Positions 2 to 52,915 of a stretch of DNA of 64,000 nt are shown piece by piece (position 1 is the stretch's first letter; each line of letters starts with the position of its first letter). The notes under the pieces were generated by a model. It saw only the letters and a program-made list of their open reading frames with translations. It ran no database searches and was not told where the DNA came from. The position numbers and the translations under genes were made by a program. This DNA comes from an uncultured Eubacteriales bacterium (GTDB taxonomy: Bacteria; Bacillota; Clostridia; Christensenellales; UBA1242). The stretch lies in NCBI GenBank assembly GCA_948607205.1, contig CAPERS010000006.1:1799-65798 (forward strand), in the 5' to 3' direction.

Positions 2-580
2 AAATTCGTATTCGACTTTTTGCCAAGAATGAACAAAAACAAAGAACTTATCATTGTGCAAAACTATGGTGGAATGGTTGGCGGTGCAGACTATTATGCT
101 TATTCGTATTGCAAAAATCATGGCTTAAACATCAGAAGCGTGTTTGTCCTCAAAATGCCTGAAAGTTTCACAACAACTTTCACTGTTCCAAAATTTTATA
201 TTAAGTCAACTCTCAAAAAAGCGGACGGTGCAATTGATAAGGTCATAAGTGATATAAAGAATGAGAAATTCTCAATTCCAAAACAAAAGAAAACAAAAGA
301 GAAAAAATATTTGACTAATATGTCTAACTGGAATAAGATTGCCAAATCATTTTGCGTAAGTGAAGACTGTGTTAGGTGTGGAAAATGCGTGAACGTTTGT
401 CCAGTGAAAAATATATCAATCGAAAACAATAAAGTTGTTTTTAGCGACAAATGCATTGCCTGTCTTGGATGTTATCATCGCTGTCCACAAAAGGCAATTA
501 GATATAAAAATCATAAAAAGAAAGATAGATATTTTAATCCAAATGTTGACGAAAATGAAATAGGAAAAGATTTAAAATAG
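2..580 (+). CDS. EFR1-family ferredoxin (4Fe-4S dicluster); N-terminus outside the window
   Basis: Two CxxCxxCxxxCP motifs (CVRCGKCVNVCP, CIACLGCYHRCP). The frame is open back to the window edge, so the TTG at 20 is probably not the true start. Confidence 0.7.
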   Translation, partial: KFVFDFLPRMNKNKELIIVQNYGGMVGGADYYAYSYCKNHGLNIRSVFVLKMPESFTTTFTVPKFYIKSTLKKADGAIDKVISDIKNEKFSIPKQKKTKEKKYLTNMSNWNKIAKSFCVSEDCVRCGKCVNVCPVKNISIENNKVVFSDKCIACLGCYHRCPQKAIRYKNHKKKDRYFNPNVDENEIGKDLK

Positions 581-584
581 AAAA

Positions 585-615
585 AATAACAGGTTCATCC
601 TGTTATTTTTGTTTT
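585..615. terminator. Rho-independent terminator, possibly bidirectional
   Basis: AATAACAGG-ttcat-CCTGTTATT stem-loop, preceded by an A run and followed by TTTGTTTT, between convergent genes. Confidence 0.7.
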
Positions 616-695
616 AGTAAATTTTTATTTTTGTTTTTTATAAAGTTGTATTTAGAAAAACTTTTCTTAGTTTAGTTTCAGGCAATGTCAGTCGA

Positions 696-1346
696 CTAAC
701 CTTTATATTTTGTCTTATATCCACTGTTTGTTTCAGGGCGGAGGTCGTTTGGAAATTCGATGTCTGTCTTGATGTCGACAACAATTTGTTGCAAGCGGTT
801 GACAAGAAGATAAGGGTCATGTAGATCTTCAAGAACATGAGTTTTGCTACTGCTTGTGTAGATAACAATGTCACCAACATGGAACATTCTGTCAAGAAAA
901 CCAATATGCAAATTCACTGATGAGATTTCTGAATACATAATATTTGTTAAATTTGCGAAAAAACCTTCTTTAATAATAATGCGCTTGTTTGTGAAAGCAT
1001 ATTCAGTGTTTTTAAGACGTCTGCGCGCAGTTAATATATGAGAAAGCCAAATCCAAACTGGCATGAGGTGAATTGCAAAGAAAATAACAAAAAAGATTAT
1101 CAAAGCAATCGGAATTCCACCTGAAATAATTCCATAAATGATTCCGCCTATAAAAAGTCCGTCAAAGCAAAGCCATAAAAAAGCAATCGGGAACATTTTG
1201 AAAAATTGTTCAAGCATAAAAACTTTTTTGTCTGGCTTGCCAGTCCATAAAAGTTGCTCATCTTCACTCAGTGCAACCATATCTTTTAGACTCTGAGAGC
1301 CATTTTCATTTTGCTTAGGTTTGAAAAAATCTTCGTTAAGATCCAT
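696..1346 (-). CDS. PH-domain (bPH_2 / YdbS-like) membrane protein
   Basis: LLWTGKPDKK motif, two hydrophobic helices, then TEYAFTNKRIIIKEG typical of bacterial PH domains. GGAGG Shine-Dalgarno (SD) upstream of the ATG. Confidence 0.6.
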   Translation of the reverse strand: MDLNEDFFKPKQNENGSQSLKDMVALSEDEQLLWTGKPDKKVFMLEQFFKMFPIAFLWLCFDGLFIGGIIYGIISGGIPIALIIFFVIFFAIHLMPVWIWLSHILTARRRLKNTEYAFTNKRIIIKEGFFANLTNIMYSEISSVNLHIGFLDRMFHVGDIVIYTSSSKTHVLEDLHDPYLLVNRLQQIVVDIKTDIEFPNDLRPETNSGYKTKYKG

Positions 1347-1397
1347 GTTTAACCTCCAAATATAATATACCAGAATAAAATTAATTTTGCAAGAGAT

Positions 1398-1853
1398 TTA
1401 GTTGTGGAGGAGGGCAACCTCGCGAAGAATTGCATCTTCTGCGAAGAAAGCCTCAGTAATATCTTCGGCGGATTTTTCCAGTTTTGATTGCAAAAGCATC
1501 AATTTTTTGGAAAACTTAAATAGAATTGAGTTGGCTTCATTGTTGAACTTGGATTTGGCGAGGATGTTTTCTTTGGTGCTTTCATCTTTGATAAGATTGC
1601 TGATTAGTGCTGAAAATGCCATAACTTTGATTCCTCTAAGTTGAAGATATTCGACATTAAATAATTTATCAATAAGTTCTTGTGCAAGTTCGGGCGTTGT
1701 AACTAAATTAAGGTCGTCAACCATTTCGTCAAAAATTTGAAAAGGTTGTTTTTTAAGTTTTGCAAGCCTCAAACAAGTGTTGACTTTGAGTTTGTATAAA
1801 TTGTTATATTTTTTATAAACAGTATTGAAATATTTTAAAATTCCTTTTTCCAT
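1398..1853 (-). CDS. hypothetical protein (151 aa)
   Basis: Clean ORF with an AGGAG SD. No domain recognised. Confidence 0.55.
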   Translation of the reverse strand: MEKGILKYFNTVYKKYNNLYKLKVNTCLRLAKLKKQPFQIFDEMVDDLNLVTTPELAQELIDKLFNVEYLQLRGIKVMAFSALISNLIKDESTKENILAKSKFNNEANSILFKFSKKLMLLQSKLEKSAEDITEAFFAEDAILREVALLHN

Positions 1854-1974
1854 TAAAGCTCCTTTTTTAGGGAATAACTTTCAAAGTATATACTTTTTTT
1901 TAACTTTTGTCTACCAAAATTAAGGAATTTCAAAAAAAGCAAACAATTTTTAATATGCAACATATTCAAATTTC

Positions 1975-2004
1975 TTGCAACTGGACATAAAAATGTGATA
2001 TAAT
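1975..2004 (+). promoter_or_regulatory. promoter of aspS-asnS
   Basis: TTGCAA (1975-1980), 18-bp spacer, extended -10 TGaTATAAT (1996-2004). AGGAGA SD at 2015-2020. Confidence 0.6.
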
Positions 2005-2026
2005 CTTGAAATATAGGAGAAGATAT

Positions 2027-3313
2027 ATGACGACTCAAATTTCAAAACTCGAAGTTGGAAAAGTTAAATTTCAAGGCATGATTGAAACTGTTCGTGACAA
2101 AAAAAACATTCAGTTTGTTGTTTTGAAAGACTTTTCAGGAAAAATTCAAGTGACAGTTGATAAGGTTGCACATCCAGAAGTGGGTGAGGTTTTTGCAAAA
2201 CTTTTGACAGGCTCAACAGTTATGGTCGAAGGCGAACTTGTTAAAAGCGAATATGTCAAGATGGGCGGTCAAGAAGTGCTCGTTGAAAGCGTTATTGTCA
2301 CAAGTGAGGCAAAAGAGCCATATCCAATCGGCCCTGAAAGCAATATTGACCAGCGCATTGATTATCGCTGGCTTGACCTTAGACAAGACAAAAACTTGCT
2401 TATTTTCAAAGTTCAAACATGTTTCACTGAGGCTATGAGAGAGTTCCTTGAAAAGCGTGACTTTGTTGAAATTCATTCACCAAAACTTATTGGAACGGCA
2501 TCTGAAAGTGGCTCGGAAGTTTTTGAAGTGAAATATTTTGACGGAAAAGCATATCTTGCACAAAGTCCACAATTTTATAAACAACTTGCCATTTCGGCAG
2601 GATTTGGAAGAGTTTTTGAATGCGGACCAGTTTTTCGTGCTGAGAAGTCACATTCAAGAAAACATGCGACTGAGTTCACTGGTTTTGACCTCGAATTCAC
2701 AGGAATTGAAAGTTGCGAAGATGTTATGAAAATGGAAGAAGAACTTGTAACCTATGCTCTTCAAAAAGTAAGTGAAAAGTATGGCGAGGCAATAAAGGCA
2801 ACTTTTGGCGTCGAAGTTAAAGTTCCAACTCTTCCTTTCCCAAGAATTGAACTTGGTGACCTCTATGATGAACTTGAAAAGCGTTACGGTTATACAATTG
2901 AAGAAAGTGAAAAAGATGACCTTTCAACCGAAGGAGAAAAACTTTGCAAACAATTTGCAATGGATTTTTACGGACATGAATTTTTGTTTATCACCGGTTA
3001 TGGTCCAAGAAAAAGAGCGTTCTATCATTTGCGCAAGAACGGAATCCCACAAGGTTATGACCTCATTTGGAAGGGCGTTGAAATCACAACAGGCGCGCAG
3101 AGAGAGCATAGATATGATATTCTTAAAGCGCAAGCCGAAGAAAAAGGTCTTGCAAAAGATGTTGAGTTCTATCTTCAATTCTTTAAATATGGTTGTCCTC
3201 AACATGGCGGATTTGGGCTTGGTCTTGACAGAATTATTATGAACCTTTTGGAACTTGCAAATATAAAAGAAGCCATGTTTATATTCCGTGGTCCTGAAAG
3301 AATCAGCCCTTAA
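2027..3313 (+). CDS. aspS: aspartate--tRNA ligase, short archaeal/eukaryal type (no GAD insertion)
   Basis: About 428 aa. N-terminal OB fold, class II motifs (FRAEKSHSRKHATEF, GGFGLGLDRIIM). Start moved from the track TTG (2006) to the ATG at 2027, which has an SD. Confidence 0.9.
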   Translation: MTTQISKLEVGKVKFQGMIETVRDKKNIQFVVLKDFSGKIQVTVDKVAHPEVGEVFAKLLTGSTVMVEGELVKSEYVKMGGQEVLVESVIVTSEAKEPYPIGPESNIDQRIDYRWLDLRQDKNLLIFKVQTCFTEAMREFLEKRDFVEIHSPKLIGTASESGSEVFEVKYFDGKAYLAQSPQFYKQLAISAGFGRVFECGPVFRAEKSHSRKHATEFTGFDLEFTGIESCEDVMKMEEELVTYALQKVSEKYGEAIKATFGVEVKVPTLPFPRIELGDLYDELEKRYGYTIEESEKDDLSTEGEKLCKQFAMDFYGHEFLFITGYGPRKRAFYHLRKNGIPQGYDLIWKGVEITTGAQREHRYDILKAQAEEKGLAKDVEFYLQFFKYGCPQHGGFGLGLDRIIMNLLELANIKEAMFIFRGPERISP

Positions 3314-3360
3314 AAAATATAAAAAGGAATAATCAATCTTTCAAAAAATTAGGAGCAAAT

Positions 3361-4740
3361 ATGAAAAAAATTGATATTGTAAAATTAAGAAAAGAGCCTC
3401 AAAAGTTTACTGATAAGTCTTTCACTATCGGTGGCTGGGTGCGCTCAGTTCGTGACATGAAAACATTTGGTTTTATTGACCTCAATGACGGAACCTCTTT
3501 CAAAGGCATTCAAGTGGTTTTGAATGCTGAGAAAATTGCTAACTATCAAGAAGTTTCACACCTCAATACTGGAAGCAGTGTGCTTTGTGAGGGAACACTT
3601 AAATTGACACCAGAGGCAAAACAGCCATTCGAGTTTGTTGCAGACAAAGTTGAAATCCTTTCTGCGACTGATGAAAGTTATCCAATTCAAAAAAAGAAAA
3701 CTTCGCTTGAAGTTTTGCGTGAACAGGCATATCTTCGCCCAAGAACAAATCTTTTCAATGCTGTTTTCAGAGTGAGAAGTGAAAGTTCGTTCGCTCTTCA
3801 TAAGTTTTTTAATGAGCAAGGCTTTGTTTATCTTCATGCACCAATCTTGACTTCTTCTGACTGCGAAGGAGCAGGAGAACTTTTCAGAGTCAGCACGCAA
3901 GATATCTATGCTGGAAAAAAACTCAATCCGGAAGACGAACTTCTTGGCAAGAAAGCCTTCCTTTCACCATCTTGTCAACTTGAAGGCGAGGCTTTTGCGC
4001 TTGCATTTGGCAATATTTACACTTTTGGTCCTTCTTTCCGTGCGGAAAACAGCAACACTGTCAAACACGTAAATGAGTTTTGGCATATTGAGCCTGAAAT
4101 GGCATTTGCCGAACTTTTTGATGATATGGACGTTATGGAAAGCATGGTTAAATATGTTATCAACTATCTCTTTGATAAATGCAAAGACGAACTTGAATTT
4201 TTCGATAGTTTCGTTGAAACTGGACTTATTGCAAAACTTAAAAATGTGACTGACAATGAGTTTGCACGTGTGTCATACACAGAAGCAATCGAAATTTTGA
4301 AGAAAAATAACGATAAGTTTGATTATAAAGTTGAATGGGGTAGTGATATTCAAACAGAACACGAAAAATATCTCACCGAAGTGGTTTACAAAAAACCTGT
4401 TTTCGTTTATGACTATCCAAAGGAAATTAAAGCATTCTATATGCGCGTCAACGAAGATGGCAAAACAGTTCGTGCAACCGACCTTCTTGTTCCAGGCATT
4501 GGCGAACTTTGTGGAGCAAGCGAAAGAGAGGAGCGATATGAAGTCTTGAAAGCACGTATTGACGAACTTGGACTCAGAGAAGAAGACTATTGGTGGTTTA
4601 TGAACCTTCGCAAATTCGGAAGCGTGAAGCACAGCGGATTTGGCATGGGCTTTGACCGTTTCCTTATGTATGTGACAGGAATGAAAAACATTCGTGACGT
4701 CCTTCCTTTCCCAAGAACACCAAACAACTGCGAATACTAA
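3361..4740 (+). CDS. asnS: asparagine--tRNA ligase
   Basis: Class IIb synthetase: FRAENSNTVKHVNEFWHIEPE, GELCGASEREERYE, HSGFGMGFDRFLMY. AGGAG SD. Confidence 0.93.
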   Translation: MKKIDIVKLRKEPQKFTDKSFTIGGWVRSVRDMKTFGFIDLNDGTSFKGIQVVLNAEKIANYQEVSHLNTGSSVLCEGTLKLTPEAKQPFEFVADKVEILSATDESYPIQKKKTSLEVLREQAYLRPRTNLFNAVFRVRSESSFALHKFFNEQGFVYLHAPILTSSDCEGAGELFRVSTQDIYAGKKLNPEDELLGKKAFLSPSCQLEGEAFALAFGNIYTFGPSFRAENSNTVKHVNEFWHIEPEMAFAELFDDMDVMESMVKYVINYLFDKCKDELEFFDSFVETGLIAKLKNVTDNEFARVSYTEAIEILKKNNDKFDYKVEWGSDIQTEHEKYLTEVVYKKPVFVYDYPKEIKAFYMRVNEDGKTVRATDLLVPGIGELCGASEREERYEVLKARIDELGLREEDYWWFMNLRKFGSVKHSGFGMGFDRFLMYVTGMKNIRDVLPFPRTPNNCEY

Positions 4741-48283: not shown

Positions 48284-48303
48284 AGAGAAAAATAGGAGTG
48301 AAA

Positions 48304-51027
48304 ATGGGACTTTTTGGAAGCGATAACGCAAGTCAAGTTAAAAAACTTAAAAAAATTGCAGACAAGGTCATTGCGCTCGAAGACCGCTTTGCTGGATACT
48401 CAAACGAGCAACTTCGTGCTTGCACTGATGAATTTAAAAATAGATATAAAACTGGGGAAAGTTTAAATTCACTTTTGCCAGAGGCTTTTGCTGTTGTAAG
48501 AGAGGCGTCAACAAGAGTTTTGAATATGAGGCACTACTACGTTCAAATTTTGGGCGGAATTGCTCTTCATCAAGGTCGTATCGCAGAAATGGCAACAGGT
48601 GAAGGTAAAACACTTGTTGAAACCTTGCCAGCATATTTAAATGCGCTCACTGGCGAAGGCGTGCATATCGTGACTGTCAATGAATATCTTGCTAAGCGTG
48701 ACGCTGAGTGGATGGGAAAGATTTTCAAGTTTTTGGGACTGACTGTTGGAGTGACTCTTTCAGGTCAGAACGAAAGACTCAAAAAAATGGCTTATGACGC
48801 AGACATCACTTATTGCACAAACAACGAACTTGGCTTTGACTATCTTCGTGATAACATGGCAGTCAATAAAAATCAACGCGTTCAAAGAGGGCGCAATTTT
48901 GCAATCGTTGACGAAGTGGATAGTATTCTCATTGACGAGGCAAGAACGCCACTTATCATCAGTGGTCGAGGAAACAAATCAAGCGAAGGCTATGTTAAAG
49001 CGCAAAAGTTTGTTAAAGGCTTGAATCGTGAAAAAGATGTTGAAATTGATGAAAAAACCAAGCAACTCAACCTTACCGAAAGCGGAATTGAAAAGGCTGA
49101 GAAGTTTTTTGGCGTTGAAAGCCTTTCTGATATTTCAAATATTGAACTTAACCACTATATCAATAATGCAATAAGAGCAAACTACATTATGCACAAAGAT
49201 GACAACTATATCATCAAAGACGGTGAAATTTTGATTGTTGATGAGTTCACTGGTCGTGTTATGCCTGGCAGACGCTTTAACGCTGGTCTTCATCAAGCGA
49301 TTGAAGCCAAAGAGGGCGTTGAAATCAAGGATGAAAACCAAACGCTTGCAACAATAACTTTCCAAAACTATTTCAGACTTTATAAAAAACTTTCAGGCAT
49401 GACAGGAACTGCCAAAACCGAAGAGGGTGAGTTCAGAACGATATACAACCTTGACGTTGTAACCATTCCAGTCAATCTGCCAAAGAAGAGAATTGACGAA
49501 CCGGACATTGTTTATGTGACGGAAGAGGGCAAGATTAAGGCTATCGTTGAAGAAATCAAGGAATGCGCAAAAACAGGACAACCTGTGCTTGTGGGCACTG
49601 TGACAATTGAGAAGAGTGAACTTATCTCCAAAGCGCTTAAAGGCGCAAAGATTGCTCACACCGTTTTGAACGCCAAAAATCATGAACAAGAAAGTGAAAT
49701 CGTGGCTCAGGCGGGCAGAAAAGGCTCGGTCACAATTGCAACCAATATGGCAGGTCGTGGAACTGACATTCTTCTTGGCGGTAACCCAGAATTTATGGCA
49801 ACAAAACGCATGAGAGCGGAAAACTTCACAGAGGAAGAAATTTCCTATGCAACCGCTTTCAACACTGTTGATGATGAAAGGCTTAATAAGGCAAGAGAGA
49901 GATTCAATGAACTTTACAAGGACTATAAAGTTGTAACCGATAAAGAAAAAGCAGAGGTCAAAGCGCTTGGCGGACTTCATATTGTTGGAACTGAGCGTCA
50001 TGAATCAAGACGTATCGACAATCAGCTTCGCGGTCGTGCAGGGCGTCAAGGCGACCCGGGAAGTTCAGTTTTCTTCCTTTCGCTTGAAGATGACCTCATT
50101 AGACGCTTTGGTGGCGACAGACTCAAAAAAATTGCCACAATGTTCAAACTTGACGACTCAACTCCAATTCAACTTGGCATACTTTCAAAGCAAATTGAAA
50201 GCGCGCAAAAGAAAATCGAACTGCAAAACTTCTCTCAAAGAAAAACAGTTATTAAATTCGACGACGTTCTCAACAAGCAAAGAGAGATTATCTATGAAGA
50301 GCGAAATAAAGTGCTTGAAGGTCTTCCAGTCCATGACCAGATTGAGCGTATGATTCCAGAGCAAGTTGAAAAGATAGTATACAAGTGTGTGGACGACGAC
50401 AAACCATTCTTTGAATGGGATATTTCAGAAATCAATTCAGCACTTGAAAAAGGACTTATCGAAAAAGGCACAAACCTTGTTGACGAAAAATTTATCGAAG
50501 GCTGTGACGCAAGTGAACTTGCCGAAAAGATTTTGAAAGTTGTTGATGAAAGACTTAAAAATCAAATGAAGACAATTGAAGAAAGTGGCTATCCTTTTGA
50601 AAATCTCGAAAGAGCCGTTCTTCTCCGAATGGTTGACCTCAACTGGATGGGGCATATCGAAGATATGCAAATCATGAAAAATGAAATTTTTGCTCGTGGA
50701 TTTGGCAATCAAGACCCTGTTCTTGCTTACAAAAAAGACGGCTTTGAAATGTTTGACAGCATGATTGACAAGATAAAGGAAATGACTGTCAATGTGCTGT
50801 TAAGCGTTAAGGTTGAAGCGCCACCAAAGCCACAAGCACAACCAACATATAACGTGGTTGTCACTGGCAAAGAACTCACGCCAGAGGAACGCGCAAAACA
50901 AAAAACAAAACCTTTTGTTCAAAAAACCGATGTTCGCACCGAAAGAAAGGTTGGACGCAATGAAGCCTGCCCATGCGGAAGCGGACTTAAATACAAAAAT
51001 TGCTGTGGGAAAGAAAAGGCAGAATAA
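48304..51027 (+). CDS. secA: preprotein translocase ATPase SecA
   Basis: MATGEGKTLV Walker A, DEVDSILIDEARTPLIISG, GTERHESRRIDNQLRGRAGRQGDPG, C-terminal zinc finger CPCGSGLKYKNCCG. The ATG at 48304 follows an AGGAG SD; the track start is GTG 48298. Confidence 0.97.
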   Translation: MGLFGSDNASQVKKLKKIADKVIALEDRFAGYSNEQLRACTDEFKNRYKTGESLNSLLPEAFAVVREASTRVLNMRHYYVQILGGIALHQGRIAEMATGEGKTLVETLPAYLNALTGEGVHIVTVNEYLAKRDAEWMGKIFKFLGLTVGVTLSGQNERLKKMAYDADITYCTNNELGFDYLRDNMAVNKNQRVQRGRNFAIVDEVDSILIDEARTPLIISGRGNKSSEGYVKAQKFVKGLNREKDVEIDEKTKQLNLTESGIEKAEKFFGVESLSDISNIELNHYINNAIRANYIMHKDDNYIIKDGEILIVDEFTGRVMPGRRFNAGLHQAIEAKEGVEIKDENQTLATITFQNYFRLYKKLSGMTGTAKTEEGEFRTIYNLDVVTIPVNLPKKRIDEPDIVYVTEEGKIKAIVEEIKECAKTGQPVLVGTVTIEKSELISKALKGAKIAHTVLNAKNHEQESEIVAQAGRKGSVTIATNMAGRGTDILLGGNPEFMATKRMRAENFTEEEISYATAFNTVDDERLNKARERFNELYKDYKVVTDKEKAEVKALGGLHIVGTERHESRRIDNQLRGRAGRQGDPGSSVFFLSLEDDLIRRFGGDRLKKIATMFKLDDSTPIQLGILSKQIESAQKKIELQNFSQRKTVIKFDDVLNKQREIIYEERNKVLEGLPVHDQIERMIPEQVEKIVYKCVDDDKPFFEWDISEINSALEKGLIEKGTNLVDEKFIEGCDASELAEKILKVVDERLKNQMKTIEESGYPFENLERAVLLRMVDLNWMGHIEDMQIMKNEIFARGFGNQDPVLAYKKDGFEMFDSMIDKIKEMTVNVLLSVKVEAPPKPQAQPTYNVVVTGKELTPEERAKQKTKPFVQKTDVRTERKVGRNEACPCGSGLKYKNCCGKEKAE

Positions 51028-51028
51028 C

Positions 51029-51058
51029 AAAAAACATCACAAATTTGTGATGTTTTTT
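51029..51058 (+). terminator. Rho-independent terminator
   Basis: ACATCACAAA/TTTGTGATGT perfect palindrome flanked by A and T runs. Confidence 0.8.
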
Positions 51059-51083
51059 ATCTTGTATGCCAAAAATATAGGGA

Positions 51084-51107
51084 ATAATATACAAGATAAT
51101 ATACAAG
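51084..51107. repeat. tandem 12-mer ATAATATACAAG x2
   Basis: Read directly from the sequence, between the secA terminator and the 3' end of the SLOG gene. Confidence 0.8.
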
Positions 51108-51128
51108 ATGCTTGACTTTTTGAGGGAT

Positions 51129-51581
51129 TTAATCTTTAAAATAGGAGGCGATATTTATAACCCTCTTATTTTTTTTGTAAGCATAATTAAGCGTTTTGCT
51201 TGCTCCACCCCATGAGTGCTCAACAAAAGCAATAACTAAGTCCGCTTGGTCTACCATCCATCGATTTCGTTCAAGGACACCGAACTTTTTAAAACACTTT
51301 AAGTCAGGTATAATTGATGAATCATATCCTTCGATATAATACAAGCGGTGTTTGATATAATTTCTATCGTTATAAGGCGAAACAAAATAAAGTTTACAAT
51401 TAGGATGGGTCTTTTTATATTGATAACATACAGATTTTGAAAATCTGTCGAAACCTCCATAGTCGCCAAAATAAAAATGTGTGGCATTATCTCCCACTTC
51501 TTTTTCTAATATTTCAATAAACTTTTTCTTTATTCCGTCATCACTATCGAAATTGGAATGACCACAAAATGTAACAACCAT
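51129..51581 (-). CDS. SLOG-family protein (DUF1273 / YpsA-like)
   Basis: MVVTFCGHSNF, FYFGDYGGFDRF, YFVSPYN, ERNRWMVDQADLVIAFV..WGGASKT. This follows the DUF1273 motif order. Confidence 0.7.
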   Translation of the reverse strand: MVVTFCGHSNFDSDDGIKKKFIEILEKEVGDNATHFYFGDYGGFDRFSKSVCYQYKKTHPNCKLYFVSPYNDRNYIKHRLYYIEGYDSSIIPDLKCFKKFGVLERNRWMVDQADLVIAFVEHSWGGASKTLNYAYKKNKRVINIASYFKD

Positions 51582-51582
51582 A

Positions 51583-51596
51583 TGCTAAGTTTAGCA
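51583..51596. promoter_or_regulatory. operator O1, TGCTAA-gt-TTAGCA
   Basis: Perfect 6-bp inverted repeat overlapping the -10 and transcription start (TSS) of the SLOG gene. Confidence 0.6.
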
Positions 51597-51616
51597 TATT
51601 TTTTAAATAAAATCAA
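51588..51616 (-). promoter_or_regulatory. SLOG-gene promoter abutting the ATG (leaderless candidate)
   Basis: Minus strand: TTGATT, 17-bp spacer, TAAACT, then TAGCAT, then ATG (51581). No SD. Confidence 0.5.
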
Positions 51617-51621
51617 TTAAA

Positions 51622-51635
51622 TGCTAAACTTAGCA
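51622..51635. promoter_or_regulatory. operator O2, TGCTAA-ac-TTAGCA
   Basis: Same palindrome, centre 39 bp from O1, between the divergent SLOG and XRE genes. Confidence 0.6.
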
Positions 51636-51685
51636 GTAAAAATATTTTTTAAAATTATATACTCTCCACAAATCAGGAGGTATAT

Positions 51686-51925
51686 ATGAATTTACAAGAA
51701 GCAATAATCATCAAGATAGAAAGTTTAAGAAAGGTGAAAAATTGGTCAAAATATAAATTATCGATGAAAAGCGGAGTGCCTCAAAGCACATTAACTTCAA
51801 TTTATAAGAAAAGATGTAAATCACTTAAAGTAATAACTTTATTTGAAATTTGTGAAGGGTTCAATATTAGTCTTCAAGAATTTTTTTCAGATCCAATTTT
51901 TGACAGGGATCAAATTTTTGAATAA
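51686..51925 (+). CDS. XRE-family HTH transcriptional regulator (79 aa)
   Basis: WSKYKLSMKSGVPQSTLTSI HTH. AGGAGG SD. Paralog of 52011-52250. Confidence 0.75.
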   Translation: MNLQEAIIIKIESLRKVKNWSKYKLSMKSGVPQSTLTSIYKKRCKSLKVITLFEICEGFNISLQEFFSDPIFDRDQIFE

Positions 51926-51944
51926 TTTATCTATTTTTTAAAAA

Positions 51945-51958
51945 TGCTAAACTTAGCA
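51945..51958. promoter_or_regulatory. operator O3, TGCTAA-ac-TTAGCA
   Basis: Third copy, upstream of the second XRE gene. The flank AAATGCTAAACTTAGCAGTA is identical to O2. Confidence 0.6.
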
Positions 51959-52010
51959 GTATTTTGATTTTTGTAATTTATATACTGGCTCTAACAATGA
52001 GAGGTGATAA

Positions 52011-52250
52011 ATGAAACTTGAAGACGCAATAATTTTGCGTATTGAACAGCTTTGCCTAGACAAAAAGATGACTAAGTATGATTTATTCAAAGCTAGCGGT
52101 GTTCCGCAAACAACTTTGACATCTATAAAAAAGAAAAGGAGTGGGTCGATTAAGCTTATAACATTATATTGGATATGTGAAGGCTTTGAAATAAGTTTAG
52201 AGGAATTTTTCGCTTCTCCACTTTTCAAAAGAGAAAATATTTTAGAATGA
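52011..52250 (+). CDS. XRE-family HTH transcriptional regulator (79 aa), tandem paralog
   Basis: MTKYDLFKASGVPQTTLTSI HTH. Roughly half the residues are identical to 51686-51925, estimated by eye. Confidence 0.75.
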   Translation: MKLEDAIILRIEQLCLDKKMTKYDLFKASGVPQTTLTSIKKKRSGSIKLITLYWICEGFEISLEEFFASPLFKRENILE

Positions 52251-52297
52251 ATTTTATCAAAAATAGCAAAATTCTGTAAAAACACCTCATTTTTGTT

Positions 52298-52325
52298 TTG
52301 AAATGATGTTTTTTTGTGATAAAAT
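52298..52325 (+). promoter_or_regulatory. promoter of the HicB-like gene
   Basis: TTGAAA, 16-bp spacer, TGaTAAAAT. Confidence 0.5.
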
Positions 52326-52349
52326 AAATCTATAAATTTAGGAGTTGAA

Positions 52350-52622
52350 ATGCAAAGACACATCTATCCAGCGATTTTCTTTAAAGATGATGATATGGTC
52401 AAAGTGCTTTTTCCAGATCTTGAACTCACAACAGATGGTTTTTTCATGGAAGAGGCTTTCCTTTATGCAAAAGAGGCACTGAAAGGTTATTTCATACAAA
52501 CTGAGAAATATGATTTTGATTATAACTTCCCTTCTTCATTTGAAAAAGTTAAAGGCTCTTGCCGAAAGGACGACGTTGTTATGCTCGTTGACGCCATTTT
52601 GACAAAAAAAGACTTAAAATAA
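52350..52622 (+). CDS. HicB-like (UPF0150) antitoxin-fold protein; no HicA partner visible
   Basis: YPAIFFKDDD..VLFPDL..TTDG..EEAFLYAKEAL matches the HicB N-terminal domain pattern. AGGAG SD. Confidence 0.6.
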   Translation: MQRHIYPAIFFKDDDMVKVLFPDLELTTDGFFMEEAFLYAKEALKGYFIQTEKYDFDYNFPSSFEKVKGSCRKDDVVMLVDAILTKKDLK

Positions 52623-52652
52623 AATATTTTTTGCGAAAGTAAAACAAAATTG

Positions 52653-52681
52653 TTGACAATATAGATGCAATATGTTAGAAT
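52653..52681 (+). promoter_or_regulatory. rpmG-secE-nusG promoter
   Basis: TTGACA, 17-bp spacer, TAGAAT. Confidence 0.6.
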
Positions 52682-52733
52682 AAACTAACACTTCCACTTG
52701 GGGTGTTAGTTTTTATGTTAGGAGAAATGAATT

Positions 52734-52895
52734 ATGGCAGCACCAAAACGCAAAAACATCACTCTTGCTTGCACTGAATGCCAAGAGAGAAATTATGCAA
52801 CAAGCAAAAACTCAACAGCAAATCCAGAAAGAATTGAAATCACAAAATTCTGTGCTCGTTGCGGAAAGAGAACTGTTCACAAAGAAACAAAATAA
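52734..52895 (+). CDS. rpmG: 50S ribosomal protein L33 (53 aa; absent from the ORF track)
   Basis: [53 protein letters not shown], with a CxxC...CxxC zinc ribbon. AGGAG SD. Confidence 0.9.
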
Positions 52896-52915
52896 TCAAA
52901 TTTTCGGGGGAATCA

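What the first reader, a model, noticed from the sequence alone, without database searches (positions are those of the whole stretch)
51129..52622. Compact island: leaderless YpsA-like SLOG gene, two tandem XRE repressors, an orphan HicB-like protein and three identical palindromic operators
A 1.5-kb accessory block sits between secA and rpmG. (i) It contains a DUF1273/SLOG protein. The B. subtilis relative YpsA blocks cell division when overproduced, and SLOG domains are nucleotide-ligand sensors in conflict systems. (ii) Two 79-aa XRE paralogs are encoded divergently from it. (iii) A HicB-fold protein is present without HicA and without a DNA-binding tail. The palindrome TGCTAA-N2-TTAGCA occurs three times. 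O1 (51583-51596) covers the -10 and transcription start of the SLOG gene. O2 (51622-51635) lies 39 bp away, just upstream of its -35 and facing XRE-1. O3 (51945-51958) lies in front of XRE-2 with an identical flank. This is the wiring of a phage-type immunity switch or a toxin-antitoxin-like module in which XRE proteins hold a potentially growth-arresting SLOG effector off. I know of no described system with this composition.
Basis: partly seen in the sequence, partly recalled or inferred. Interest (0 to 1): 0.62.

Follow-up and report, generated by a model that had tools for sequence, protein, structure and literature searches.

The report
Repressor-locked SLOG gene cassette
A 1.2-kb insert next to secA is a portable cassette in which two small repressor genes appear to keep a leaderless YpsA-like (SLOG) gene switched off through three identical DNA sites. 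The neighbouring HicB-like gene is a fixed core gene of this bacterial family and does not belong to the cassette.

Summary
The 14-mer occurs nowhere else in the 1.09-Mb genome.

Structure models confirm a YpsA-type SLOG fold and a HicB N-domain fold.

- **XRE-SLOG pair:** it is a real, conserved, self-contained module. A divergent ~80-aa XRE sits beside the SLOG gene in 53 of 74 species-level homologue loci, with no third conserved gene.
- **Promoter and operators:** two other species keep the same promoter and operator layout. The SLOG promoter is TTGATT-14-TGcTAAACT, followed by 6 nt and then ATG. It lies inside operator O1 and has no ribosome-binding site. The leaderless, repressor-occluded reading is therefore well supported by sequence, but not by experiment.
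- **Recurrence:** the genome holds a second cassette with its own duplicated XRE. Cultured Monoglobus pectinilyticus has the same two-XRE + SLOG layout.
- **HicB-like gene:** it is not part of the island. It is single-copy in 61 of 61 genomes of the genus and always lies directly upstream of rpmG.

SLOG toxicity and its function remain untested.

This scan has already reported the XRE-SLOG cassette on other DNA several times. I found no paper that describes it.

The parts
51029..51058 (.). Perfect 15+15 palindromic hairpin with an A-run before and a T-run after. Likely a bidirectional terminator serving secA (+) and the SLOG gene (-). Marks the left edge of the insert.
   Evidence: I6.
51084..51107 (.). 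Exact tandem 12-mer ATAATATACAAG x2 between the terminator and the SLOG stop codon. Meaning unknown.
   Evidence: Sequence. Partial inverted match to 51051-51067 (I7).
51129..51581 (-). YpsA/YoqJ-family SLOG protein gene, 150 aa, with no Shine-Dalgarno sequence.
   Evidence: phrog_289, E = 9e-11. Invariant residues: G7, H8, G39, G42, F44, D45, P69, Y70, D87, R105, N106, G125, G126, A127.
51583..51596 (.). Operator O1, TGCTAAGTTTAGCA. It contains the extended -10 of the SLOG promoter and ends one base before the ATG.
   Evidence: Same arrangement in L026 and L102.
51588..51616 (-). Predicted SLOG promoter: -35 TTGATT (51616-51611), 17-nt spacer ending in TGc, -10 TAAACT (51593-51588). Six more bases follow, then A51581 serves as both +1 and the A of ATG, giving a leaderless mRNA.
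   Evidence: Read. Geometry conserved in L026 (TTGATT-17-TATACT-6-ATG) and L102 (TTGAAA-17-TAAACT-6-ATG). No transcript data.
51622..51635 (.). Operator O2, TGCTAAACTTAGCA, 39 bp centre-to-centre from O1. It lies 5 nt upstream of the SLOG -35. Its centre is at about -41.5 relative to the predicted XRE1 transcription start.
   Evidence: D1, I9.
51658..51663 (+). Predicted -10 (TATACT) of XRE1, exactly 22 nt after O2. No recognisable -35.
   Evidence: The same 22-nt spacing holds in 5 of 5 operator-XRE units (window x2, L026 x2, L102).
51686..51925 (+). XRE1, 79-aa HTH_26/HTH_3 protein. It is the SLOG-proximal and faster-evolving paralogue.
51945..51958 (.). Operator O3, identical to O2. It is part of a 45-nt operator-plus-promoter duplication (51619-51663 versus 51942-51986, 82% identical).
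   Evidence: D1.
51981..51986 (+). Predicted -10 (TATACT) of XRE2, 22 nt after O3.
52011..52250 (+). XRE2, 79-aa HTH_26 protein. It is the distal, slowly evolving paralogue (86% identical to its L026 orthologue).
52350..52622 (+). NOT part of the cassette. HicB N-domain-only protein, a core gene of the genus, with its own promoter-like site (TTGAAA-16-TAAAAT, 52298-52325). Always lies directly upstream of rpmG.

Best explanation
The region 51,060-52,300 is a self-contained, horizontally acquired 'repressor-locked SLOG' cassette. It is inserted into the short secA / hicB-like intergenic spacer.

**Cargo**
- The cargo is a 150-aa YpsA/YoqJ-family SLOG protein, that is, a nucleotide-binding or nucleotide-processing Rossmannoid fold with the GxD motif kept.
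- It is transcribed as a leaderless mRNA from an extended -10 promoter that lies entirely inside operator O1.

**Repression of SLOG (inferred from geometry and conservation, not measured)**
- An XRE dimer bound at O1 would exclude RNA polymerase and keep SLOG off.
- O2 lies 39 bp upstream, next to the -35.

**Autoregulation of the XRE genes (inferred)**
- Each XRE gene carries its own copy of the operator, centred at about -41.5 from a -35-less TATACT promoter.
- The repressors therefore regulate themselves. This is probably positive at low occupancy, as with lambda CI at PRM or restriction-modification controller proteins.

**Origin of XRE2 (shown by sequence)**
- XRE2 arose by tandem duplication of the operator-promoter-gene unit.

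**When SLOG is made (inferred)**
- SLOG is made in a burst only when repressor is absent or inactivated. Examples are arrival of the DNA in a naive cell, repressor loss or dilution, or an unknown trigger.

**What SLOG then does is unknown.** My ranking:
- a conflict-type role: growth or division interference like overproduced YpsA, or processing of NAD/ADP-ribose-type nucleotides, as proposed for viral YpsA-clade SLOGs; about 60% together;
- ordinary metabolism: lower.

The HicB-like gene next door is an unrelated core gene.
For: **The operators are real**
- Three exact copies, unique in the genome.

**Fold and motif**
-.

**The module is conserved**
- A divergent ~80-aa XRE is present in 53 of 74 homologue loci. 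No third gene is shared.
- The same pairing is seen for ~30%-identical SLOGs in the genus and order.
- It is seen in 7 of 13 IMG/VR contigs, beside integrases or serine recombinases.

**Phylogenetic footprint**
- L026 has SLOG at 54% identity. L102 has SLOG at 39% and XRE at 62-76%.
- Both keep the O1-O2 spacing, the -35/17/-10/6/ATG layout with no SD, and TATACT 22 nt after each XRE operator.
- In L026 all three operators carry the same half-site change, TTAGCA to ATAGCA.

**Most other family members**
- They place a palindrome, TATGTAGGTAnACCTACATA, about 35 nt upstream of the start codon, just before an SD.

**The architecture recurs**
- A second cassette lies in the same genome (C1:65489-66693). 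It has an independently duplicated XRE pair and three CGCTATTTAGAA repeats.
- Monoglobus pectinilyticus has two HTH genes plus a 'SLOG family protein', with GTGCGTATACGCAC-type sites.

**It is an insert**
- In 15 genus relatives secA ends about 105-300 bp before the hicB-like gene. In the window the gap is 1322 bp.
- The cassette genes are 26-33% GC; the neighbouring core genes are 35-41%.

**Selection**
- All three genes are intact in both species. dN is 0.10-0.35 and dS is saturated.

**Conflict flavour**
- Sister SLOGs in the genus lie beside AbiL and restriction genes.
- YpsA overproduction blocks cell division (PMC6459960).
- Viral SLOGs are mainly of the YpsA-like clade (PMC9503650).
Against: - There are no transcript, binding or phenotype data.
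- Promoter calls rest on hexamer reading in AT-rich DNA. The generic promoter scan did not list them.
- The operator centre at -41.5 is also compatible with simple autorepression.
- The 79-aa XREs have no sensor domain, so no inducing signal can be named.
- About a quarter of homologue loci (18 of 74) show no adjacent small regulator. SLOG is therefore not obligatorily repressor-gated.
- The genome has no TIR-domain protein that could supply cADPR-type signals.
- The window's cassette has no mobility genes. It has been kept since the split from the L026 species. That fits a burst-on-entry role less well than a standing cellular function.
Confidence: 0.7

Rival explanations
1. A type II toxin-antitoxin pair. 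SLOG is a toxin neutralised by direct binding of the XRE protein(s), perhaps through their conserved C-terminal F-F-x-x-P-x-F tail. The operators serve only for conditional autoregulation.
For: - The module is small, mobile and patchily distributed. It is present twice in a 1.09-Mb genome.
- YpsA overproduction is growth-inhibitory.
- SLOG-fold proteins take part in the ShosTA toxin-antitoxin/defence system. ShosA (8zva) is the second-best structural match.
- The XREs carry a short conserved tail beyond the HTH (sequences).
Against: - The genes are divergent, not co-transcribed, so stoichiometric coupling is absent.
- The same XRE family is paired with a small membrane protein elsewhere in this genome.
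- RHH proteins replace XRE in some loci, and about 24% of loci have no regulator.
- In ShosTA the SLOG-like protein is the antitoxin, not the toxin.
- There was no PADLOC or TA-family hit for the SLOG protein.
Confidence: 0.12
2. A decaying remnant of a prophage or ICE lysogeny region, made of a CI-like repressor plus the first early gene, with no present function.
For: - In IMG/VR contigs the pair sits next to integrases or serine recombinases.
- The SLOG protein matches phrog_289 and the XREs match phage repressor PHROGs.
- YoqJ is an SP-beta prophage protein.
Against: - No phage or mobility gene lies within the window region.
- The same three genes are intact in a second species, with dN 0.10-0.35 against saturated dS.
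- The bare two-gene unit recurs in more than 50 species, with no third conserved gene.
- The operators are perfectly kept.
Confidence: 0.08
3. An ordinary nucleotide-metabolism gene (LOG-like hydrolase or salvage enzyme) with a local transcriptional repressor, unrelated to genetic conflict.
For: - The SLOG superfamily includes metabolic LOG enzymes. One YpsA branch associates with NAD salvage.
- Many strictly invariant polar residues (H8, D45, D87, R105, N106) suggest catalysis.
- The cassette is kept long-term in a reduced genome.
Against: - Patchy presence: 9 of 24 genus genomes.
- Variable insertion sites and neighbours.
- Lower GC than the core genes.
- Association with phage, ICE and defence-island contexts.
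- The SLOG protein evolves faster than its neighbours.
Confidence: 0.08
4. The three palindromes are chance AT-rich matches with no regulatory role.
For: AT-rich intergenic DNA is prone to short palindromes.
Against: - 0 of 100 shuffles gave three matches.
- The 14-mer is unique in 1.09 Mb.
- Position and spacing are conserved in two other species, with a co-ordinated half-site change in one.
Confidence: 0.01

Closest known systems
YpsA (B. subtilis, PDB 2NX2) and its SP-beta prophage paralogue YoqJ; Pfam PF06908/DUF1273, YpsA clade of the SLOG superfamily
   Same: - Best structural match (TM 0.72).
- The GxD/E motif is kept.
- Homologues at 40-45% identity are annotated PF06908, and one is named 'phage-like protein YoqJ'.
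- Stand-alone single-domain protein of about 150-180 aa.
   Different: - Only about 14% identical to YpsA. The window protein scores below Pfam's gathering cut-off (19.4 versus 27.7 bits).
- No gpsB neighbour, which is the hallmark of the YpsA-proper clade. A divergent XRE repressor is there instead.
- The gene is leaderless.
- Function not tested.
Lambdoid immunity region (CI at OR, PRM/PR; leaderless cI mRNA), from textbook knowledge
   Same: - Back-to-back promoters share palindromic operators.
- A repressor site is centred at about -42 of the repressor's own -35-poor promoter.
- One of the two divergent transcripts is leaderless.
- The repressor holds an early gene off.
   Different: - Here the leaderless transcript is the cargo, not the repressor.
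- There is no Cro-like antagonist: both XREs are co-directional paralogues.
- No RecA-cleavable or other sensor domain.
- No phage genes.
Restriction-modification controller (C) proteins such as C.PvuII and C.Esp1396I
   Same: - Small XRE-type HTH dimers (~80 aa) bind paired palindromic boxes at their own promoter, giving feedback that times expression of a potentially harmful gene after DNA transfer.
- Weak PADLOC 'Control_protein' hits (E = 0.0016-0.0095).
   Different: - No restriction-modification genes adjacent.
- The controlled gene is divergent and is predicted to be repressed, not activated.
- The matches are far below any membership level.
ShosTA (ShosA, DprA-like SLOG protein, PDB 8ZVA)
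   Same: - Second-best structural match.
- A SLOG-fold protein inside a two-gene toxin-antitoxin/defence module.
   Different: - ShosA is about 300 aa and is paired with a PRTase toxin.
- There is no PRTase here, and the partner is a DNA-binding repressor.
HicAB toxin-antitoxin system (for the 52350-52622 gene only)
   Same: The fold equals the HicB N-terminal domain (TM 0.75-0.80). phrog_497 'HicB-like' scores E = 2e-9.
   Different: - No HicA in the genome.
- No C-terminal DNA-binding domain (90 aa).
- Single-copy core gene in 61 of 61 genomes of the genus, fixed upstream of rpmG.

Membership tests
YpsA/YoqJ family (PF06908, SLOG superfamily) | Match to the Pfam model above its gathering score | tested here: not met
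   The window protein scores 19.4 bits against a cut-off of 27.7. Homologues at 40-45% identity do carry precomputed PF06908. A profile of the family reaches 2nx2 only at E = 0.049.
YpsA/YoqJ family (PF06908, SLOG superfamily) | SLOG Rossmannoid fold closest to YpsA | tested here: met
   Model pLDDT 90.7. Foldseek top hit is 2nx2 (E = 2e-6, TMq 0.72), followed by ShosA, DprA, TM1055 and the TRPM SLOG domains.
YpsA/YoqJ family (PF06908, SLOG superfamily) | Glycine-rich loop with the GxD/E motif needed for YpsA function | tested here: met
   G42, F44 and D45 are invariant, within G42-G43-F44-D45 of the window protein, across 18 homologues. The motif aligns with G-V-E of YpsA. Its role in YpsA is from PMC6459960.
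YpsA-proper clade | Conserved neighbourhood with gpsB | tested here: not met
   The neighbours are secA and XRE genes. No recurrent third gene was found in 80 loci.
YpsA-proper clade | Cell-division inhibition on overproduction | not testable with these tools
   Needs expression experiments.
XRE / Cro-C1 HTH repressors | HTH_26 or HTH_3 domain above the gathering score | tested here: met
   XRE1 HTH_26 scores 27.4 bits and XRE2 scores 35.9 bits, against a cut-off of 22.
XRE / Cro-C1 HTH repressors | Palindromic operator at its own and/or the target promoter, conserved with the protein | tested here: met
   Binding itself was not tested.
Type II toxin-antitoxin module (XRE antitoxin + toxin) | Co-transcribed bicistronic operon with the antitoxin adjacent to the toxin | tested here: not met
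   The genes are divergent, with separate promoters. The same holds in 53 of 74 loci.
Type II toxin-antitoxin module (XRE antitoxin + toxin) | Toxicity of one partner, neutralised by protein-protein binding | not testable with these tools
   No complex prediction or experiment was available.
HicAB toxin-antitoxin system | HicB N-terminal (partial RNase H-like) fold | tested here: met
HicAB toxin-antitoxin system | Adjacent HicA toxin gene | tested here: not met
   No PF07927 match anywhere in the 99%-complete genome. The control genomes did give matches.
HicAB toxin-antitoxin system | C-terminal RHH or HTH DNA-binding domain in HicB | tested here: not met
   The 90-aa protein consists of the N-domain only.
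Known anti-phage defence systems (PADLOC 2.0) | Match of the effector to a catalogued defence protein model | tested here: not met
   No PADLOC family matched the SLOG or HicB-like proteins. The XREs gave only weak HTH and control-protein hits.

The most novel reading that the evidence does not exclude
The XRE-SLOG cassette is a previously unrecognised, very widespread class of stand-alone conflict module in gut Clostridia.

- A nucleotide-acting SLOG effector is held silent purely at the level of transcription. It could arrest growth or division, or it could destroy or sequester NAD/ADP-ribose-derived signals.
- It is fired as a leaderless burst when the repressor fails.
- Repeated, independent tandem duplication of the repressor produces one conserved 'keeper' copy and one fast-evolving copy next to the effector. 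The fast copy may tune or sense the trigger.
Probability: 0.25. Interest if true: 0.75.

Novelty: new variant of a known kind. Interest (0 to 1): 0.5.

Why it matters
- **Scale of the family.** YpsA/YoqJ-type SLOG proteins form a very large family with essentially unknown biochemistry. A profile search found 6,903 clusters at 50% identity. The only phenotype on record is division arrest when B. subtilis YpsA is overproduced.
- **What the cassette suggests.** A large branch of the family travels with a dedicated repressor and an occluded, leaderless promoter. That implies expression is normally harmful or only transiently useful.
- **A simple experimental handle.** One could remove the repressor or mutate one 14-bp site and observe the result.
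- **A tractable host.** The same layout exists in cultured Monoglobus pectinilyticus.
- **A corrected annotation.** The HicB-like gene is not an orphan antitoxin on an island. It is a domesticated core gene tied to the rpmG-secE-nusG operon in a family of bacteria with about 1-Mb genomes. That raises a separate question of its own.

Tried and rejected
- **Sequence-only family calls.** Pfam and NCBIfam were too weak for the SLOG and HicB-like proteins. I replaced them with homologue profiles and structure models.
- **Burroughs et al. 2015** (PMC4678834, the SLOG classification paper) is not held. I could not check its supplementary neighbourhoods for an HTH association.
- **Cultured phage and plasmid collections** gave one partial hit each. 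The plasmid hit led to the Monoglobus example.
- **dN/dS between the window and L026.** dS is saturated, so only dN values are usable.
- **Rfam scan of 50900-52900.** Nothing above noise.
- **Insertion scars.**
  - An 11-nt direct repeat TGATGTTTTTT flanks the insert (51048-51058 and 52304-52314). Both copies are T-rich terminator tails, so I do not claim a target-site duplication.
  - In L026 the gene to the left of SLOG is not secA, so only the right junction is shared.
- **HicB-like gene as a cassette member.** Rejected.
- **SLOG as a sensor of endogenous TIR-made signals.** No TIR_2 or ThsB_TIR protein in the genome.
- **A third conserved cassette gene.** None found. The 147-aa gene after the SLOG gene in L015 has no Pfam or PADLOC match and does not recur.
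Full report
**1. The observation**

| Gene | Coordinates | Strand | Length |
|---|---|---|---|
| SLOG | 51129-51581 | - | 150 aa |
| XRE1 | 51686-51925 | + | 79 aa |
| XRE2 | 52011-52250 | + | 79 aa |
| HicB-like | 52350-52622 | + | 90 aa |

- The block lies between secA (48298-51027) and rpmG-secE-nusG-rplK-rplA.
- XRE1 and XRE2 are 58% identical.
- TGCTAA-N2-TTAGCA occurs exactly three times, at 51583, 51622 and 51945, with no mismatch. Chance expectation is 0.27, and 0 of 100 shuffles reached three.
- These are the only exact copies in the whole 1.09-Mb, 99%-complete genome.
- The three sites are one and the same 14-mer. O1 is inverted relative to O2 and O3.
- O2 and O3 sit inside a 45-nt duplicated block, 51619-51663 versus 51942-51986, 82% identical. 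XRE2 therefore arose by tandem duplication of a whole operator-promoter-gene unit.

**2. What the proteins are**

*SLOG protein*
- Sequence models alone are weak: YpsA PF06908 scores E = 1e-3, below the cut-off, and NCBIfam finds nothing.
- 22 homologues at 37-50% identity exist. Several carry PF06908, and one is named 'phage-like protein YoqJ'.
- Invariant residues are F5, G7, H8, G39, G42, F44, D45, P69, Y70, D87, P92, R105, N106, M109, G125, G126, A127 and A134.
- The AlphaFold model (pLDDT 90.7) matches YpsA 2nx2 best (TM 0.72). ShosA 8zva, DprA and the TRPM SLOG domains follow.
- It also matches phage family phrog_289 (E = 9e-11).
- It is a member of a very large family: 6,903 clusters at 50% identity at E <= 1e-3.

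*XRE proteins*
- Both pass Pfam HTH_26.

*HicB-like protein*
- The model (pLDDT 95.8) matches HicB N-terminal domains at TM 0.75-0.80.
- The genome has no HicA.

**3. The HicB-like gene is not part of the island**

- Its 90-92-aa homologues at 55-84% identity are common.
- In every contig I examined they lie directly upstream of rpmG-secE-nusG-rplK-rplA, with different genes on the other side.
- In the genus, 61 of 61 genomes have exactly one copy.
- In all 35 loci checked it is followed by rpmG. In 15 genus relatives secA ends only about 105-300 bp upstream of it. That is the empty site, and none of these carries SLOG or XRE genes.
- Outside the family, only weak and sporadic HicB matches appear (9 of 81 genomes in the order).
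- So this is a lineage-specific core gene. The accessory insert is only SLOG + XRE1 + XRE2, about 1.2 kb, and it is AT-richer than its neighbours (26-33% versus 35-41% GC).

**4. The XRE-SLOG pair is a conserved module**

- I took the 80 best species-level homologue loci. Of these, 74 have enough upstream sequence.
- 53 of the 74 carry an ~80-aa XRE homologue divergently, 100-170 bp upstream of the SLOG gene.
- Two more have an RHH protein there, and two have a convergent HTH gene.
- Clustering all neighbours found no third recurrent gene. The surrounding genes differ from locus to locus, and a few are recombinases.
- The pairing persists for SLOGs only about 30% identical:
  - L013 and L015;
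  - the genus relatives L008 to L011, including three tandem HTH genes in L010;
  - 7 of 13 IMG/VR contigs, where the pair sits beside integrases or serine recombinases.
- Two genus relatives have XRE-less sister SLOGs. One (L007) lies next to AbiL genes and the other (L006) between restriction-enzyme genes.

**5. Wiring**

*SLOG promoter (minus strand)*
- It reads TTGATT (51616-51611), a 17-nt spacer ending in TGc, TAAACT (51593-51588), six bases, then A51581 of the ATG.
- This is an extended -10 promoter whose predicted +1 is the first base of the start codon. There is no Shine-Dalgarno sequence.
- The TG and the -10 hexamer lie inside O1.
- The same layout is present in two other species:
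  - L026: SLOG 54% identical, two XREs, same hicB-like/rpmG junction; TTGATT-17-TATACT-6-ATG.
  - L102: SLOG only 39% identical, one XRE at 62-76%, a different genomic site; TTGAAA-17-TAAACT-6-ATG.
- In both, O1 and O2 are 39 bp apart.
- In L026 all three operators carry the same change (TTAGCA to ATAGCA), as expected if sites and repressor co-evolve.
- Most other members of the family instead have a TATGTAGGTAnACCTACATA palindrome about 35 nt upstream of the start, followed by an SD. The leaderless form is therefore a lineage variant of a common design.

*XRE promoters*
- In all five operator-XRE units (window x2, L026 x2, L102) a TATACT hexamer lies exactly 22 nt after the operator, with no -35 match.
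- This puts the operator centre at about -41.5.
- That is the position of lambda OR2 at PRM and of class II activators (textbook knowledge). It suggests positive autoregulation. Simple autorepression is not excluded. This step is inference.

**6. The architecture recurs**

- The genome has a second SLOG gene (C1:66205-66693, 30% identical). It too has two tandem 77-aa XRE genes divergent from it, and three CGCTATTTAGAA repeats in the intergenic region.
- In a tree of the XREs, the window's pair groups with L026 and L102 (99/98 support). The C1 pair forms its own clade (100/96). The two duplications are therefore independent.
- In both, the SLOG-proximal copy has a roughly ten-fold longer branch (0.79 versus 0.07, and 1.04 versus 0.09).
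- Cultured Monoglobus pectinilyticus carries two 80-aa HTH genes divergent from an annotated 'SLOG family protein'. GTGCGTATACGCAC-type sites lie before each HTH gene, and a related palindrome lies at the SLOG promoter.
- XREs of the same family also face non-SLOG cargo in this genome. An example is a small membrane protein at C4, with AGGTTAAATTTAACC sites. This favours a generic local repressor over a SLOG-specific antitoxin.

**7. Function**

*Shown*
- The fold, the conserved nucleotide-binding motif, the conserved repressor pairing and the conserved operator-promoter overlap.

*Inferred*
- XRE represses SLOG, SLOG mRNA is leaderless, and the XREs autoregulate.

*Unknown*
- What SLOG does and what lifts repression. 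The XREs have no sensor domain beyond a short conserved C-terminal tail.

*Leads*
- YpsA overproduction blocks division in B. subtilis and S. aureus and needs the GxD/E motif (PMC6459960).
- Viral SLOGs are mostly of the YpsA-like clade and were proposed to degrade cADPR-type immune signals (PMC9503650).
- The genome has no TIR protein. A role as sensor of an endogenous TIR signal is therefore unlikely.
- All three cassette genes are intact in two species, with dN 0.10-0.35 and dS saturated. The cassette is therefore maintained, not decaying.

**8. Prior knowledge**

- I found no paper describing an XRE-SLOG unit. The key SLOG classification paper is not held.
- Earlier agents of this scan have reported the same cassette on other genomes several times. 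Their reports include tandem XRE arrays and a burst-on-entry idea. Those are unchecked notes.
- The points I tested myself are the pairing frequency, the defence-island sister branch, and the RHH substitution.
- New here are:
  - the exclusion of the HicB-like gene;
  - the leaderless, operator-embedded extended -10 promoter conserved in three species;
  - the fixed -41.5 geometry at the XRE promoters;
  - the second cassette, with an independent and asymmetric repressor duplication;
  - the Monoglobus example.

**9. Verdict**

- This is a new variant, unpublished as far as I could search, of a known kind of arrangement: a repressor-gated accessory gene with phage-immunity-like wiring, built around a YpsA/YoqJ-family SLOG protein.
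- Interest is moderate (0.5). The wiring is clear and testable. The biology of the cargo is the open and potentially valuable part.

Noticed in passing
window 52350-52622 (promoter-like site at 52298-52325): A HicB N-domain-only protein, with no HicA in the genome and no DNA-binding tail, is a single-copy core gene in 61 of 61 genomes of this ~1-Mb-genome genus. It lies directly upstream of rpmG-(secE)-nusG in all 35 loci examined. Outside the family only sporadic weak HicB matches occur. It looks like a domesticated antitoxin fold tied to a ribosomal/secretion operon. Its function is unknown.
   Followed up: partly
own genome, G000 contig C1:65489-66693: A second XRE-XRE-SLOG cassette: two 77-aa XRE genes and a 162-aa SLOG gene that has an SD. 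Three CGCTATTTAGAA repeats lie in the intergenic region. The XRE duplication is independent of the window's. In both cassettes the SLOG-proximal XRE copy has a roughly ten-fold longer branch than the distal copy.
   Followed up: partly
own genome, G000 contig C4:1-663 and C19:67-318: XREs of the same family, with the same C-terminal F-x-x-x-P/E-x-F tail, face non-SLOG cargo. At C4 the partner is a small membrane protein, and two AGGTTAAATTTAACC palindromes lie between the genes.
   Followed up: no
window 51048-51058 and 52304-52314: An exact 11-nt direct repeat, TGATGTTTTTT, brackets the 1.2-kb insert (D4). The left copy is the 3' arm and tail of the secA terminator. The right copy lies in the spacer of the hicB-like promoter. 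It may be a duplicated target or chance similarity between T-rich tails.
   Followed up: no
window 51084-51107: Exact tandem 12-mer ATAATATACAAG x2 between the secA terminator and the SLOG stop codon. It partly pairs with 51051-51067 (I7). No counterpart could be checked in L026, where the left neighbour is not secA.
   Followed up: partly
L007 (G016:C1) 169-1950 and L006 (G010:C20) 59-3361: XRE-less SLOG genes, about 33% identical to the window's, lie in defence-gene settings. In L007 the SLOG gene is immediately beside AbiLi/AbiLii (AAA_21 + RloB). In L006 it lies between type II/IIG restriction-enzyme-like genes.
   Followed up: partly
L149 = Monoglobus pectinilyticus NZ_OY725739.1, 93211-94350: A cultured organism carries the same layout: two tandem 80-aa HTH regulators divergent from an annotated 'SLOG family protein'. 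The operators are of the GTGCGTATACGCAC type. Two more small HTH genes lie 1.2 kb downstream. It is a possible experimental system.
   Followed up: partly
L102 versus window: The XRE (62-76% identical) and the operator 14-mer (identical) are far better conserved than the SLOG protein they control (39%). This suggests either fast evolution of the SLOG gene or its exchange against a fixed regulatory unit.
   Followed up: no
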